Assembly (NCBI RefSeq): GCF_035594765.1
Contig: NC_085843.1
Location: forward strand, 122,737,971-122,801,970
Source of the DNA: Anolis carolinensis
Taxonomy: Eukaryota
Direction of reading: 5' to 3'
DNA length: 64,000 bases
In this document: positions 17,558 to 49,129 of the stretch, piece after piece
Layout: each line of letters begins with the position of its first letter
How positions within the stretch are numbered: the stretch's first letter is position 1
Position numbers and translations under genes: made by a program
The notes under the pieces: generated by a model
Databases searched by the model: none
Told to the model about the DNA's origin: nothing
Seen by the model: only the letters and a program-made list of their open reading frames with translations

Positions 17558-18256
17558 TGTTGTACCCCTAGGCTGCAGAGACACCTCAAAACCACACTGG
17601 AGCCCAAACTATAAGCAATGCAAGCTGTTTATATATGTAAGCTATAGCAAATCAAAGTTCAGAGTCAACAAACAAGGTTTTAGTCCACAAGGTACGAGAT
17701 ACTTGAGAATCTTGAAGCAAGGATCCATGAAAACCAAATGCAAGAATAAACTTCAAACAAGGTACTCAAAATTAGTCCAAGGAACAGGATCAAATACTGG
17801 AACAAAGAACAGGATCTTTAACTGGTGCAAGAGATTCAAACTGCAAGGCTTTCAGGGACATGACTTGATCATCCAAAATCCCCAGGAGCAACTGTCTGCT
17901 TCTTCACAAAAACCCCCTTTCTTGTCTGTGTTGACATATTGCTTTCTTTCTGTCAACCTCAATACACTTATCACAACTGGAATGCCCATCTGCCAAGGGA
18001 TAACATGACCCTGACTCTCCCAAGGAATGTGGTTCAAGCTGCCTGCTTGAAACCATTGTATGCCAGCTCCCAGAATCCTCAGGAACAGCAGCCTCATCTA
18101 ACTCTGGCTATACAGAATCATTTACCTCTGGCTGCATGGGAATCCTAGGCCCCAACCCAGATTCACCTGACAGGTCAGGTTGCAGGTACAATCACAGACT
18201 GAACAGACCCAACCTTAGGATCACCTGACAGCTCAGGTGTGGGCTGGGATACAACA
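17558..18256 (-). mobile_element. Solo LTR (Gypsy/BEL-type), family A
   Basis: Termini tgttgta...tacaaca; 5-bp TSD ggaac (17553-57) / ggagc (18257-61). Architecture resembles the LTRs at 29631 and 42388. Confidence 0.8.
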
Positions 18257-20019
18257 GGAGCAAGGAAAACATGGGAAGCTTCCCATGTTCTCATTGCCAG
18301 CAATGGGGACAGCGTGGCAGGGAGCCAAGGAGAAACACTTCCCCCCATGTGATGGGGAAGGCCGAGCTGCGGGTACTGCATGGCGACAGATTCCCCCACT
18401 GCTCCACAGATTTGCTTTGATGCCCGGGCGAATCTCAAAGTGTTGCCTGTGTTAGACAACTAAATATGATAAGGTCCTTAGAGAAGCAAAAGAACCTGGG
18501 ATGGAAGGACATAATGGAAAGAGGTTTTTCAGAGGACACAGGAGGAGAATGTACTGAGTTTTGTTGATGGGAAAGGGTGGGTCATGCCTACAATTTATAG
18601 CACTTTTGTTTATTTGTTTCTTGGATCCTTATGTGTATGTTTTCTTTTTAATCTCAATAATTACTTTTCACTTACTTATCTTTCCCCAATATAAATGTAC
18701 GATAAGAGGAACATCCAAAGTCACAATTGAATTAGAATGTGAAGTTACACTTAGTCATTCCTTCTTAGGAACTCAGTGCATTCCTTTTTTCTCAATGTTC
18801 CTATGGGAGAACACTTAAGTTCAAGATGGAGCTAAAACCATCCTCCCTCCCCGGCCCGCTTCCATGGAAAGAGCTGTAATGATGATTCAAACATTTTTCC
18901 TCTTTATGACTTCAAGAAGGAGAATATTGAGCATTAACTATTTATGCTTTAAAGACTGTATTTTTTAAAGTCCAACAACTGGGAATAAATAAGGCCAGGT
19001 GTCCATCATGGCATGATTAGGGAGGATTATGGATGGGTGGTACTTCTATTCAACTGATTTTTTTTTTAAAAAAAGAAATAAAATAATTGCAAAATAATTC
19101 ATGAACAAAAAAGGTTTTTCAAAAGAGAGAAAATAAAATTAGCAGAACCATCCATCTCAACATAGAGCTGTGAGTCCTTAGATCTTGATGGGAATCTTAT
19201 ATCTTGAAAATCCTTGTAGTTTTTGGTCTTGTGCACTGAATAGGGATTTCCAGCTCTCTTCGTTGGTCCTCATCTTTCATGATGAGATAAAAGACATGTA
19301 TAACATCATCCCCAACATATTGATAACAGCTGTGACTGTTGAATTTAGCTCATGTAGATGAGGAAAAGAATGATTCCATTCCTCTTTTGAAGGGAAAAAA
19401 TAATACATTGGGTGGAAAAGAACCCTTTAGATTTCAAAATGCACACCGTTTTTAAATAGCTGTTAACGGTATGCATTCACTATCAAAAATACCTGCCCTT
19501 TCATGAGGTAAAAATCTTAGTCCCTTCCTAGTCTCAGTGCTCCACCTCTAGCTTTCCTCACCCAAACTCTTTTTCTTAAACACTAGTCTGTTTCTGTACT
19601 CTAGCACTCATTTAATAATCATTTCAAACCAAAATGCCCTTTAAATAGAACTTCTTCCCCCATGCCATTCAATCCTTCTCTTTCTGTCTCTTTCTTAATA
19701 ACTTGCCCTTCCTCATATAGGCAAACGACAGCCAACCAACCAGGTAGTGCATATTAGGCAAATGGGATTCTCAGTCATCTACCTATTCTACCTTTTATAT
19801 GCACATGAAATCTGCAGTGAGGAACAAGCAAGCTCAATGGGCATTTGAATTATACAAGAAGAAGAGCCAAAAAATTAGGAATAAAGGGGTTTGTAGTTTA
19901 GTTTCCAGTAGCTCTTCCTTTAATAGCAGCAAAATTTTTGAACAAAACACAAAGCATAATATTCTAAAGTAGATGTCTTACTTCAAAGGAATTATCACAA
20001 TCTGGAAGTCTAAAACCTG

Positions 20020-20312
20020 TAGCACAGTTCTTAAACCGGCCTAAATAGGGTCCCCTTAACTCCATTTGGCAAGATAAAGGTTTCTGCACACCACCCATTT
20101 ACACAAGGCTGTTAGCATTAACAGGCAGTGTGAATTCTGCAGAAAATGTTTCAGCTGTAGTCCACAAATGAAAATCAGCCTGGTTAGGAATCCTTGCGAA
20201 TGCTGAATTAAAGGTTTGATTTTGATACTTACTATATATACCTATATTCCAGGGGTCATGTGAAAATTTCTCAGGTGGAAAGAGGCAAGTGGAAAAAGTT
20301 TAAAAGAACCCT
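20020..20312. mobile_element. Non-autonomous hAT-like element (same family as 57613-57936)
   Basis: Shared right end ggtcatgtgaaaatttctcagg..caagtggaaaa..aagaa.ccct. Confidence 0.55.
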
Positions 20313-20950
20313 TGGCCTAGAGTAGTGTCTCTCAAACCCTGGCCTGTTTTGGGTTTCAGCTCCTAAGATCATTGTCCAAGGCAGCTGAGACTTCTGCACG
20401 TTGAAGTCCAAAACACTTGGAGGATTAGAATTTGAGAATCACTGGCCTGGAGTCTCTATGCCATCTCATTACTTAGCTGTAATTGCATGGTATGGTAATA
20501 TTTTAAATAATTAAAATATTTTTAAAAATATTTCTGAGAATAACCCCTTTATTATGTGCATGCCATGCTTTGACTGTCTAGGTTACAGTGTTGTAGCTAT
20601 TGCAATGACAGACAGATAGGAAGGCAGACATACATGCCCTCTTTTATTATTATAGTTGTTGTTTTTTGAAAAAAAGGGGGGTGGGAAAGGAAGGGAAAGG
20701 GAGAAGACAGAGAGAAAGTGCTAGGAGGAAATATATATGATAATGTGCTGGGTCACTAGGCATATAAATTAACATAAGGTGACCATATGTTCCAAAATCT
20801 CTTTGCTTGGAACTGGCATCAGTAGAATATATATTTATATGTAGTTAAAGCAATAAGAACTGTTGAAGGATGGATAGTGAGTGTTTGTCTTTCCAGCATT
20901 GGAGCATGAAATATTCAACTATAGTGCTGCCTCTCCCCAGACACAAAGAT

Positions 20951-21145
20951 GACAGTACACCACCAGCAGAGAGGGTTTTTAGGAATGATGGGACATGCAG
21001 TGCTTTGGGGAGGCCAAACAAAGAGAGGGCCTTGAACCCAGAGGATTCAGCTAAGTAACTTTTCTGCCACTCCCTAGATGAAAGGAGGGCAGTACACCAC
21101 CAGCAGAGAGGGTTTTTGGGAATGATGGGACATGCAGTGCTTTGA
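20951..21145. repeat. ~55-bp direct repeat spaced ~137 bp
   Basis: cagtacaccaccagcagagagggttttt.ggaatgatgggacatgcagtgctttg occurs twice. Confidence 0.85.
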
Positions 21146-21164
21146 GCAGGACAAAGGCATCACA

Positions 21165-47235: not shown

Positions 47236-47476
47236 AGTGACTTGAGCAAGTCGCTTCTGGTGTCAGAAAAATGGCCGTGTGCAAGGACGTTGCATGTTTT
47301 ACCATCCTTGTGGGAGGCTTCTCTCATGTCCCCGCATGGGGAGCTGGAGCTGACAGAGGGAGCTCATCCATGATCTCCCTGGATTCGAACCGGTGACCTT
47401 CAGGTCAGCAACTCAAGCTTCAAGTCAACAATCCTGCTGGCACAAGGGTTTAACCCATTGCACCACTGAGGGCTCC
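47236..47476 (-). mobile_element. Sauria-type SINE
   Basis: Reverse complement reads ggagccctcagtggtgcaatgggttaaacc..ggttcgaatcc..agctccagctccccatgcgggg..gcttgctcaagtc. Confidence 0.8.
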
Positions 47477-47879
47477 AACAAGAGAAGTGAAACAGTTACT
47501 AAAGCACACCGCGGCCCAGTCTCACCTCCTTTAGAATTTGTAACATCAGCTTGAACTGTAGACCTTAATATAGGGCTGAGGAACCTGTCACAATACAGAC
47601 TCCTCTTAAAGAGCCACATACAATAAGTAAAGTTAGCAAATGTTTATTAAATGATAAATTGAACTCAGAAACACTTAACTTTAGTGTTTCCACCAAAAGT
47701 AAATGTCTTTGCTTCAAGAAAAGGCACAAAACAGGAACAGAAAGATAACCCAGATGATCTAGTTTGATAATCTGGTTCAAATATAACCAAAACGTTCACT
47801 GAAACAAGCGCCACGCTATGCTGTGGCACAGAGAGTCAGGGAAGCGCCAAACACTCTAAAATAATGAGTGCAAATGATA

Positions 47880-48362
47880 CCGTTGTCAGAAGCCAAGCCA
47901 AGTTCAAAAGCCAAAAGGTGCCAAAAACGCCAAGCCAGGAGCAAACACTGTAGTCGTCAGGAAGCAGACCGGATTCAGAAGCCAAAGGGGAGCCAGAAAT
48001 GCCAAGCCGGGAGCAAACACAGTCGTCGTAAGGAAGCAGACCGGATTCAGGAGCCAGTGGAAGCCAGAAACGCCAAACCAGAAACGCCAAGTTGGAATCG
48101 CCAAGCCAGGAGCAAAACGCTGTCGTCAGGAGCCAAACTGGGTTCAAGAGCCAGGAACGCCAAACCAGGAACCTCAAAGCAGGAATGAACACTGTTGTCA
48201 GGAGCCAAACTGGATTCAGGAGCCAGGAACGCCAAGCCAGAAACGCCAAGCCAGGGATGCCAAAGCAGGAATGAACGCTGTTGTCAGGAGCCAAACTGTA
48301 TTCAGGAGCCAGGAGCGCCAAGCCAGAAATGCCAAGTCAGGAATCAATCCTGATTCAGAACA
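47880..48362. repeat. Degenerate minisatellite (~65-95 bp units) inside the LTR-like element
   Basis: Recurring gtcgtcaggagccaaactggattcaggagccaggaacgccaagccagaaacgccaag. Confidence 0.85.
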
Positions 48363-48693
48363 TGAAGCTGTACAGCCAGGACCCAAGGAGAACAGGCAGC
48401 GACAAAGCAATGTCCCAAAAACGACACCTTGCCTTCTGCAAGGGACCATCAATTTCAACTCCACTTCTAACTTACACCTCGGAGTCCGATGATGATGAGG
48501 CCTCCGCCCTGTCATTATCCACAGCTGATCTTGATCTCATATGTGAACCTCACCCACCAGCCCTCCAATCACTCCATCTTTGTTCAAGACTTAGATCTCC
48601 CCATGTCTCTGGTGTACCAGTAGCATGCCAGTCTCCCGATGCACCCTTAGAAACTGGTGCTGCACACACATTTACTTGAGTCCAACCTGCAGC

Positions 48694-49031
48694 TTATTCC
48701 ATCCCACTCTCAGACCCATCATCCCCAGAAAAACCTTCAAACGTTTCATCTTCCGTGGGAGCAGTAAGTATATCATGAATCTTCTTTCTTTCCCTTTCCT
48801 CATCTGACTCTTGCTCCCGAGTTGACCTCCTAGTTCCTCTACTCTCTTCCTCCATTGAGTCCTCCTCACTAGAGAAGCCTTCAAAGTCTCCTCATCAGTA
48901 GGAGCCATAAGTATTTCCCCAATCCGCTTTACTTGCTGTTCCTCATCAAACACCTGCTCAACATTATCCCTTTTCCTCCTACTAGCAATTTTACCAGTAG
49001 TAGCAGAACTGCCCCTTGGCACAACTACAAC
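48694..49031 (-). pseudogene. Frameshifted acidic ORF with two helix-acidic-FEGF modules
   Basis: DEEQQVKRIGEILMAPTDEET(F)EGFS and DEERERKKIHDILTAPTEDETFEGFS. A 1-nt deletion near 48885 breaks the frame. Confidence 0.65.
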
Positions 49032-49129
49032 AGAACCTGTAACTTGCAGACAGGGTTGAACTCCTAGATTCCAAGAAATCCCGGGCAACCTGGTCAGTGA
49101 TGAGAAATAGCAGACCAACAACATTTAAA

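What the first reader, a model, noticed from the sequence alone, without database searches (positions are those of the whole stretch)
17558..49032. Four diverged solo LTRs each carry a U3 reading frame with chromatin-reader-like motifs: candidate LTR-encoded integration-targeting system
Seen in sequence: four LTR(-like) elements with little nucleotide similarity in U3 (17558-18256, 29631-30535, 42388-43326, ~47819-49032) all open a frame at base 2 of the minus-strand LTR (t-GTN: VVSQ, VMSQ, VMTH, VVVV), upstream of the TATA/polyA-like signals where these are visible. Protein motifs are conserved across them: acidic-LGF or FEGF, and RRSxR. Established: FxGF with acidic flanks binds LEDGF IBD/TFIIS-N domains, and short Arg-anchor peptides bind the H2A-H2B acidic patch (HMGN RRSARLSA, KSHV LANA, foamy virus Gag CBS). 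Retroelements use such tethers for site selection, and U3-overlapping ORFs exist (HIV nef, MMTV sag). Inference: the frame is either the C-terminal tail of Pol/integrase read through the polypurine tract into the 3' LTR, or a separate accessory protein, and it tethers integration to chromatin. I do not know of this being described for reptile LTR elements but cannot exclude it.
Basis: partly seen in the sequence, partly recalled or inferred. Interest (0 to 1): 0.9.

Follow-up and report, generated by a model that had tools for sequence, protein, structure and literature searches.

The report
Lizard retrotransposon integrase tails inside LTRs
The four repeats are leftover ends of lizard jumping genes whose first few hundred bases code for the tail of the integrase protein; one lineage has no histone-reading domain and instead carries a close look-alike of the human motif that docks on LEDGF (the protein that steers HIV into genes), and the others end in a nucleosome-binding-type motif, so these tails likely anchor new insertions to chromatin.

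Summary
Four solo LTRs (TG..CA, 5-bp TSDs) of Tf1/Sushi-type Ty3/Gypsy elements. The U3 frame is real but is not a separate gene. It is the C-terminal tail of Pol, read through the polypurine tract: 12 of 12 full-length E3 copies and 83 of 90 unselected junctions. It lies upstream of the inferred transcript start. Tail dN/dS is 0.36, against 0.92-1.08 in shifted frames.

The motifs are not one shared set. Chromodomain lineages (E1-E3) end in RRSxR[L/I], mostly RRSARIAA; yeast Dot5's nucleosome-binding motif is RRSARIAT. Their LGF is not FxGF. The E4 lineage lacks the chromodomain and carries helix-acidic-FEGF motifs whose top PDB match is the JPO2 motif bound to LEDGF. Complex prediction gave only weak support (0.36 vs 0.00). 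No insertion bias was seen in crude proxies.

Read-through has a plant precedent (CRM). Ten paper searches found no such motifs in a retrotransposon. Earlier scan notes concern other gypsy tails, not these motifs. Chromatin tethering is likely but untested.

The parts
17558..18256 (-). E1 solo LTR of an old chromovirus family; about 217 bp shorter than family copies
   Evidence: TSD GGAAC/GGAGC; family copies about 90% alike and about 920 bp; deletion. No internal region found for this exact family
17886..18255 (-). E1 broken Pol-tail remnant; basic end at 17886-17954; no FxGF or LGF
   Evidence: family copies read RRSKRLL; sister family L198 has chromodomain and PPT in frame
29631..30535 (-). 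E2 solo LTR inserted in a CR1-like LINE
   Evidence: TSD ACCCT; 24 of 30 family loci have a perfect 5-bp TSD; LINE-like ORFs flank it
30262..30534 (-). E2 Pol tail, 90 codons (premature stop near the end); EEDLGF 30463-30480; RRSVRL 30271-30288
   Evidence: family 3' LTRs L190 and L191 follow chromodomain and PPT, in frame in L191 and frameshifted in L190
42388..43326 (-). E3 solo LTR of a young chromovirus family with full-length copies
   Evidence: 100% identical to both LTRs of a 6,352-bp element
43047..43325 (-). E3 Pol tail, 92 codons, intact; EEENLGF 43254-43274; HMGN-like RRSLRI 43071-43088
   Evidence: in frame with PR-RT-RH-IN-chromodomain in 12 of 12 full-length copies
42901..42941 (-). 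E3 TATA-like box (42941) and self-priming site (42910-42901), the inferred transcript start
   Evidence: 10-nt complement of the PBS at LTR base 417; start not measured
47586..49032 (-). E4 solo LTR of a chromodomain-less lineage; 3' part holds tandem repeats
   Evidence: TSD GAACC; family 3' LTRs follow the same PPT
48472..49031 (-). E4 broken Pol tail (family about 190 codons) with two TIM-like repeats: first disrupted at 48882-48923, second intact at 48730-48780
   Evidence: only PDB hit of the second motif is 6EMO, LEDGF IBD-JPO2 motif 1, E=0.46

Best explanation
The four repeats are solo LTRs of Tf1/Sushi-type Ty3/Gypsy retrotransposons whose pol gene reads through the polypurine tract into U3 of the 3' LTR, so the U3 frame is the tail of integrase, and this tail likely tethers the integration complex to chromatin through motifs that mimic host proteins. 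Shown: the frame is fused to Pol, lies wholly upstream of the self-priming site, and is under purifying selection. Two tail types exist. (a) Chromodomain lineages (E1-E3): an acidic, Pro/Ser-rich spacer ends in a basic stretch with RRSxR[L/I]. It is predicted to act as an HMGN/Dsup/Dot5-type arginine anchor on the H2A-H2B acidic patch, adding affinity to a chromodomain with an intact aromatic cage. (b) The E4 lineage has no chromodomain; its tail carries one to three helix + acidic linker + FxGF motifs, predicted to bind the IBD/TND of LEDGF or HRP2 and so to borrow their H3K36me2/3-reading PWWP domain. The window's solo LTRs are dead remnants of this coding tail and would not make the protein from their own promoter.
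For: Read-through: 12 of 12 full-length E3 copies, 9 of them open over 1,256 aa. In 90 unselected PPT junctions, 83 have chromodomain and tail in one open frame, 2 are chromodomain-less TIM type, 4 are broken and 1 is chance. The E4 family copy L133 is open from the integrase SH3 module through the tail with no chromodomain. The related young family is open from RT to the tail end in L289 and L292. Self-priming site at LTR base 417 vs tail stop at 280 (E3), and 461-464 vs 433-436 (TIM family). Selection: tail dN/dS 0.36 (0.25-0.50); shifted frames 0.92 and 1.08; downstream LTR 0.65-0.87; integrase end plus chromodomain 0.11; third positions vary most. RRSxR in 85 of 87 chromodomain-type tails: RRSARIAA 66, RRSLRIAA 10, RRSARIIA 8, RRSTRIAA 1. 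Arg codons switch between AGR and CGN, and the TIM Pro uses all four codons. Dot5 RRSARIAT, Dsup RRSSRLTS and HMGN RRSARLSA bind the acidic patch (PMC13347269, PMC12487698, passages). The TIM-family motif's top hit among 177,635 PDB sequences is JPO2 motif 1 in 6EMO, E=0.035. FxGF is special to LEDGF/HRP2 ligands (PMC9987994). Predicted complex of lizard LEDGF IBD with the window's E4 motif: 0.36, best of 3 controls 0.00, runs agree in at least 89% of contacts, partner pLDDT 63. This is weak support: the mark was reached by 51 of 78 solved and 2 of 108 mismatched pairs, but at 0.60 or under by only 5 of 78 solved pairs and by all 4 passing mismatches, and a like complex is solved, so it may show only likeness.
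Against: No binding is measured. No insertion bias was seen: 4 of 44 TIM-family junctions lie outside the six big chromosomes against 15% expected (p=0.30), and E4 hits 1 of 40. Flank GC, CpG and repeat cover do not differ between E4 and E1-E3 (p=0.75, 0.53, 0.12). The tail is far less constrained than the core, and one downstream non-coding frame gave 0.65 (0.47-0.82), overlapping the tail's interval. One search used 100 of 122 loci, chosen for an open frame and the end motif, so its C-terminal value is partly circular, and pairs are not independent. Within old families, shared variants are only mildly richer in synonymous changes (38:23 vs 301:101 nonsynonymous:synonymous for singletons, p=0.044); E1 shows no signal (17:6 vs 115:46, p=1.0). 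RRSxR is short and also fits an NLS or kinase site. The E3 basic end had no PDB hit, and no tail matches Pfam. No internal region was found for E1's own family. Whether the tail stays on mature integrase after protease cleavage is unknown.
Confidence: 0.62

Rival explanations
1. The tail is a real Pol extension but serves nuclear import or general nucleic-acid binding: the basic end is an NLS or DNA/RNA-binding stretch, and the acidic part is a spacer or kinase-regulated region, with no role in site selection.
For: The basic stretch resembles NLSs, and NLS-like stretches are discussed for plant chromovirus integrases (PMC3605345, passages). Tails in other squamates end in basic stretches without RRSxR (P0215 Rhineura, P0222 Vipera). 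No insertion bias was detected.
Against: An NLS does not need the fixed R-R-S-x-R-[L/I] pattern kept across tails otherwise too diverged to align. It cannot explain the JPO2-like helix-linker-FxGF, duplicated within E4 tails and kept in a diverged family.
Confidence: 0.2
2. The FxGF motifs do bind a TND protein, but for another step or partner (IWS1, TFIIS, MED26, elongin, PNUTS; for example transcript elongation, export or host-factor decoy), not for integration targeting.
For: At least 15 human proteins carry TNDs, and a complex prediction cannot tell family members apart. No insertion bias was seen.
Against: FxGF contributes mainly to LEDGF/HRP2 binding (PMC9987994). The motif sits where related elements have their chromodomain and where plant CRM elements have their targeting motif (PMC3059260).
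Confidence: 0.1
3. The U3 frame is a separate accessory protein (like nef or sag) made from the LTR or from a spliced RNA.
For: E2/E3-type tails have Met at codon 2, and database gene models of 210-261 aa cover the integrase end plus tail.
Against: The frame is continuous with Pol. It lies upstream of the self-priming site, so the LTR promoter would not transcribe it. E1- and E4-type tails have no Met at codon 2.
Confidence: 0.04
4. The open frame is a passenger: pol simply lacks a stop, and the apparent motifs reflect U3 DNA elements or chance.
For: Fish relatives carry only about 10-30 extra residues after the junction-like motif, without these motifs (read-through there inferred from protein only). 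The tail evolves fast.
Against: dN/dS 0.36 only in the coding frame, and length differences between subfamilies keep the frame. Motif codons change while residues stay.
Confidence: 0.04

Closest known systems
[quoted passage not shown]
   Same: gag with CCHC, PR-RT-RH-IN order, SH3/GPY-F module, chromodomain (E1-E3 types), self-priming instead of a tRNA primer, 5-bp TSD.
   Different: Long (85-190 aa) LTR-encoded tails with HMGN-like or TIM-like motifs, and a lineage without a chromodomain. Fish relatives have short tails ending in SPEY/SPEF.
Plant CRM group A centromeric retrotransposons, CR motif / putative targeting domain (PMC3059260, PMC3605345, passages)
   Same: Pol extends into the 3' LTR, and an LTR-encoded motif stands in place of the chromodomain (as in the E4 lineage) and is tied to targeting.
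   Different: Different clade, tRNA-Met primed. The CR motif's partner is unknown, whereas the lizard motifs match characterised host motifs. No centromere preference is shown here.
JPO2/CDCA7L motif 1 and other TND-interacting motifs bound to LEDGF IBD (PDB 6EMO; PMC9987994)
   Same: Hydrophobic helix, 8-residue acidic Ser/Thr linker and FxGF; top PDB match for two lizard families.
   Different: Carried by a retrotransposon integrase tail and encoded in an LTR; binding only predicted.
Lentiviral integrase-LEDGF/HRP2 tethering (PMC9987994, viral mimicry section)
   Same: The same host adaptor would steer integration.
   Different: Lentiviral integrase uses its folded domains (recalled); here a short linear motif like the host's own would be used.
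HMGN / Dsup / Dot5 nucleosome-binding motif (PMC12487698, PMC13347269, passages)
   Same: RRSxR core with the three arginines; the commonest tail reads RRSARIAA against Dot5 RRSARIAT.
   Different: At the end of an integrase, preceded by a conserved [DSN]-R-x spaced 12-13 residues upstream; nucleosome binding untested.

Membership tests
Ty3/Gypsy, Tf1/Sushi group | gag plus PR-RT-RH-IN domain order, no env | tested here: met
   Pfam on L121 ORFs and on P0061/P0062; ORF maps
Ty3/Gypsy, Tf1/Sushi group | Self-priming PBS complementary to the LTR | tested here: met
   10-11 nt matches in the E3 family, TIM family and L293 family; not found for damaged E4 copies L133/L134; no full copy to test for E1 or E2
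Ty3/Gypsy, Tf1/Sushi group | RT phylogeny with named members (Sushi-ichi, Amn-san) | tested here: inconclusive
   Quick tree of 63 of 78 rows: the two lizard lineages are separate clades (support 100) at an open fork among mostly chromodomain-bearing relatives; no named reference element in the tree; careful search unfinished
Chromovirus | Chromodomain at integrase C-terminus (E2, E3 families, E1 sister family) | tested here: met
   PF00385 E=6e-08 in P0001; L190, L191, L198 by inspection
Chromovirus | Chromodomain at integrase C-terminus (E4 lineage) | tested here: not met
   No PF00385 in P0002, P0061, P0062; about 30 residues between the SH3 module and the PPT. Loss is inferred, not tested with a root
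TND-interacting motif (LEDGF/HRP2 type) | Hydrophobic helix, acidic Ser/Thr linker of 8-16 residues, FxGF (E4 lineage) | tested here: met
   Sequence pattern in 48 stretches, alignment A2, PDB match to JPO2 motif 1; the helix is inferred from the pattern
TND-interacting motif (LEDGF/HRP2 type) | FxGF with upstream helix (E1-E3) | tested here: not met
   E2/E3 read acidic-[N/D]LGF with no upstream helix pattern; E1 has none; 0 of 87 chromodomain-type tails carry the pattern
TND-interacting motif (LEDGF/HRP2 type) | Binds a TND | tested here: inconclusive
   Weak support, 0.36 vs best control 0.00; a like complex is solved
HMGN-like nucleosome-binding motif | RRSxR core with three arginines (E1-E3 families) | tested here: met
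   85 of 87 tails; E1, E2 and further families; broken in window E1; absent from the E4 lineage
HMGN-like nucleosome-binding motif | Acidic-patch-dependent nucleosome binding | not testable with these tools
Plant CRM group A | Pol extends into the 3' LTR | tested here: met
Plant CRM group A | tRNA-Met primer binding site | tested here: not met
   Self-priming site instead
Plant CRM group A | CR motif sequence and centromeric location | not tested
Retroviral U3 accessory gene (nef, sag type) | Separate ORF with its own mRNA | tested here: not met
   Fused to Pol and upstream of the inferred transcript start; RNA test uninformative

The most novel reading that the evidence does not exclude
U3 of lizard Sushi-type elements is an exchangeable targeting cassette fused to integrase. 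One lineage dropped its own heterochromatin reader and evolved tandem copies of the host's JPO2-type motif to recruit LEDGF/HRP2, converging on the lentiviral tether by linear-motif mimicry and shifting insertion towards H3K36-methylated gene bodies. The others added an HMGN-type acidic-patch anchor behind the chromodomain. Both types have recently active families in one genome, which makes a natural experiment on how integration-site choice evolves.
Probability: 0.35. Interest if true: 0.87.

Novelty: new variant of a known kind. Interest (0 to 1): 0.7.

Why it matters
LEDGF tethering is described for lentiviruses, and TIMs for host transcription factors; a TIM in a retrotransposon integrase would be an independent route to the same host adaptor. 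An HMGN-like anchor on an integrase would extend that motif, so far shown for HMGN, Dsup and Dot5, to mobile elements. The plant CR motif shows that LTR-encoded integrase tails can steer insertion, but its partner is unknown; here the motifs name their partners and can be tested with short peptides. About 4,700 PPT-LTR junctions in this genome, of both tail types, allow a direct comparison of existing insertion sites once chromatin maps are overlaid. It also means many lizard solo LTRs carry dead coding tails, which explains spurious gene models.

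Tried and rejected
Full-length copies for E1: pattern searches found one PPT-like flank without pol (L155/L192) and related families only; E1's read-through rests on sister family L198. 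E2: the first pattern returned a different subfamily, the second nothing, the third two decayed copies.

RNA: no RNA holder listed on record. Four runs guessed to be RNA, all contigs, covered every bin and listed three joints, none with GT..AG ends; uninformative on expression, start or splicing.

Insertion preference: chromosome share and flank GC, CpG and repeat cover gave nothing; no gene annotation or chromatin map was at hand.

Database searches of the tails: Pfam, no family for 4 tail pieces. ESM Atlas, no usable hit for the E4 tail and only integrase SH3 clusters under 0.9 for P0061. PDB search with both E4 motifs together gave only a chance sirtuin hit; the E3 basic end gave none. Among 90 representative proteins with a readable tail, one (P0209, unnamed) had a TIM-like motif, beside a chromodomain. 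The tree did not resolve how the two lizard lineages relate.

Rejected readings: acidic-LGF as FxGF; RRSxR in E4; the shared initial Val as evidence.

Literature: searches found no report of TIM or HMGN-like motifs in a retrotransposon (0 papers; one Ty3 structure paper, listing only). A 2009 Gene paper on a full-length Anolis chromodomain element (recalled) is not held. Butler et al. 2001 on vertebrate Tf1/sushi elements was seen only as a reference. Either may already note the read-through. PMC11217421 (passages) was irrelevant. No supplements were read; Repbase/Dfam entries were not available.

Full report
1. What is there. The four intervals are minus-strand solo LTRs with TG...CA ends and 5-bp target duplications: E1 17558-18256, E2 29631-30535, E3 42388-43326, E4 47586-49032. 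Each belongs to a multi-copy family: best copies are about 90% (E1), 91-95% (E2), 98-100% (E3) and 85-95% (E4) alike. For E2, 24 of 30 loci have a perfect 5-bp TSD. The closest named proteins are from Anolis carolinensis, so the host is an anole-type lizard. Only E3's frame is intact in the window. E2 stops 5 codons early; E1 and E4 are frameshifted and carry stops.

2. The frame is the tail of Pol. E3 has full-length copies of 6,352 bp with near-identical LTRs. They encode a 330-aa Gag and a Pol with protease, RT, RNase H, integrase, SH3 module and chromodomain. In 12 of 12 copies Pol runs through the polypurine tract into the 3' LTR and ends 92 codons later; 9 of 12 are open over 1,256 residues. 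The junction 13-mer occurs 4,700 times in the genome against 31 for the reversed control. I read 90 of the first 100 listed. Of these, 87 are chromodomain-type elements (83 open from chromodomain to tail, 4 broken), 2 are chromodomain-less, and 1 is chance. E4-family 3' LTRs follow the same tract. L133 is open for 324 residues from the integrase end through a 191-residue tail, and Pfam finds the SH3 module but no chromodomain. E4's pol fragments are 57-81% identical to the chromodomain-less P0061 and 45-63% to the E3 Pol. A younger family of that lineage is open from RT to tail end in L289 and L292. For E2, two decayed 3' LTR copies follow a chromodomain, one in frame. For E1 no internal region was found; a sister family (L198, likeness judged by eye) has chromodomain, tract and tail in frame with one stop.

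3. It is not a separate U3 gene. The bases after the 5' LTR are complementary to 10-11 bases inside the LTR, the self-priming hallmark of the Tf1/Sushi group (PMC6317226, passages). This places the transcript start at LTR base 417 in E3 (tail stop at 280) and at 461-464 in the TIM family (tail stop at 433-436). The tail is thus wholly U3 and would be read only from the 3' end of the genomic RNA. This is inferred; the RNA data were uninformative.

4. The frame is selected. Across 22 subfamily representatives (100 of 122 loci usable; those with breaks or without the end motif were dropped), tail dN/dS is 0.36 (column bootstrap 0.25-0.50). The same bases in shifted frames give 0.92 and 1.08, the downstream LTR 0.65-0.87, and the integrase end with chromodomain 0.11. 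Pairs are not independent and the C-terminal value is partly circular. Within the old families, singleton changes are neutral (301 nonsynonymous to 101 synonymous), as expected after insertion. Changes shared by four or more copies are 38 to 23 (p=0.044): a signal in E2, weak in E4, none in E1. Motif codons vary while residues stay: Arg moves between AGR and CGN, and the TIM proline uses all four codons. This argues against a DNA element.

5. Two tail types, not one motif set. (a) Chromodomain lineages. The tail is acidic and Pro/Ser-rich and ends in [D/S/N]-R-x, 12-13 residues, then RRSxR[L/I]. RRSxR is in 85 of 87 unselected tails, 66 as RRSARIAA, and in the E1, E2 and further families whose tails otherwise do not align. 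Yeast Dot5 RRSARIAT, Dsup RRSSRLTS and HMGN RRSARLSA bind the nucleosome acidic patch through these arginines (PMC13347269 and PMC12487698, passages). The acidic-LGF of E2/E3 lacks the first Phe and the helix, and E1 lacks it altogether, so it is not a TIM. The E3 chromodomain keeps aromatic residues at the three cage positions (read), the type said to read methylated H3K9 (PMC3059260, passages). (b) The E4 lineage has no chromodomain and no conserved RRSxR. Its tails hold two repeats of I/L-x-D/E-I-L/F, an acidic Thr/Ser linker and FEGF; one related family has one repeat, and P0183/P0184 show three related repeats. This fits the TIM definition of helix, 8-16-residue acidic linker and FxGF, the last special to LEDGF and HRP2 (PMC9987994, part 1 of 6 and passages). 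A 28-residue query from the related family finds JPO2 motif 1 in the LEDGF complex 6EMO as top hit of 177,635 PDB sequences (E=0.035). The window's own motif finds only that entry (E=0.46). The predicted complex with lizard LEDGF IBD scored 0.36 against 0.00 for the best control. The runs agreed in at least 89% of contacts and partner pLDDT was 63; the alignments were not used. The tool calls this weak: such low passes are more often wrong than right unless the guess was likely beforehand, and a like complex is solved.

6. Mechanism. Shown: the tail is translated in frame with Pol, lies in U3, is selected, and carries these motifs. Inferred: it stays on integrase and docks the integration complex on chromatin, by acidic-patch anchor plus chromodomain in type (a), and by LEDGF/HRP2 and their H3K36me2/3 reader in type (b). 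Against: no insertion bias appeared in crude proxies (4 of 44 TIM-family junctions outside the six large chromosomes vs 15% expected; flank GC, CpG and repeat cover alike). These proxies cannot see gene bodies. An NLS or another TND partner remain possible.

7. Compared with what is known. Pol extending into the 3' LTR is known for plant CRM group A, where the LTR-encoded CR motif replaces the chromodomain and is tied to centromere targeting, and for some Reina elements (PMC3059260, PMC3605345, passages). Fish relatives seem to read through for only 10-30 residues without these motifs. Rhineura and Vipera elements have long acidic tails with basic ends, and one unnamed protein has a chromodomain plus two TIM-like stretches, so tails vary across lineages. 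The quick tree shows the two lizard lineages as separate clades among mostly chromodomain-bearing relatives; chromodomain loss is inferred, not tested. The TND review has no mention of transposons, and ten paper searches found no TIM or HMGN-like motif in a retrotransposon. Subscription papers on Anolis and vertebrate sushi elements could not be read. Earlier scan notes describe other gypsy tails in other genomes, none with these motifs.

8. Verdict. Observation partly confirmed; interpretation partly supported. Pol-tail identity about 0.97 for E2-E4 and 0.85 for E1; chromatin tethering about 0.6. New variant of a known kind. Interest 0.7; novel case probability 0.35, interest 0.87 if true.

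Noticed in passing
E2 family hits: 14 of 40 best copies lie on the small chromosomes (C9-C15) against 15% expected (p=0.002); E3 rows 0 of 40 and E4 1 of 40. Could be targeting, retention or ranking bias.
   Followed up: partly
window 17558-49032: All four solo LTRs lie on the minus strand within 32 kb (1 in 8 by chance); might reflect an intron of a plus-strand gene. Not checked.
   Followed up: no
G000:C1 first 30 Mb: About 11 of the first 100 junctions have a neighbour within 6 kb (rough hand estimate, about 4 expected); L123 and L070 sit beside or inside other LTRs. Possible nesting preference.
   Followed up: no
window 22370-24160: Rearranged Penelope/RTE-like element: a 283-aa ORF at 23029-23880 with a GIY-YIG-like look (label recalled, not scanned) and a 700-bp inverted duplication at 93.6%.
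   Followed up: no
window 47880-48345: The 3' part of the E4 LTR holds degenerate tandem repeats, and family LTR length varies from about 1.2 to 1.7 kb.
   Followed up: no
window 1475-2210: Degenerate tandem array of about 70-bp units related to CR1-like 3' ends elsewhere in the window.
   Followed up: no
P0209 (unnamed assembly of a public run): Gypsy integrase with both a chromodomain and two TIM-like FxGF stretches, a possible intermediate or independent gain.
   Followed up: partly
fish proteins P0007-P0060: Tails after the chromodomain carry PRPRGRP/RRRGRP stretches (AT-hook-like, label recalled) and often end in SPEY or SPEF.
   Followed up: no
L156 = G000:C2:143716846-143720148: An intron-poor copy of the LEDGF C-terminal region besides the spliced locus at L158/L159, perhaps a retrocopy.
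   Followed up: no
L289-L292: In the TIM family the tail's stop lies only about 28 bases before the self-priming site, so the core promoter overlaps coding sequence.
   Followed up: partly
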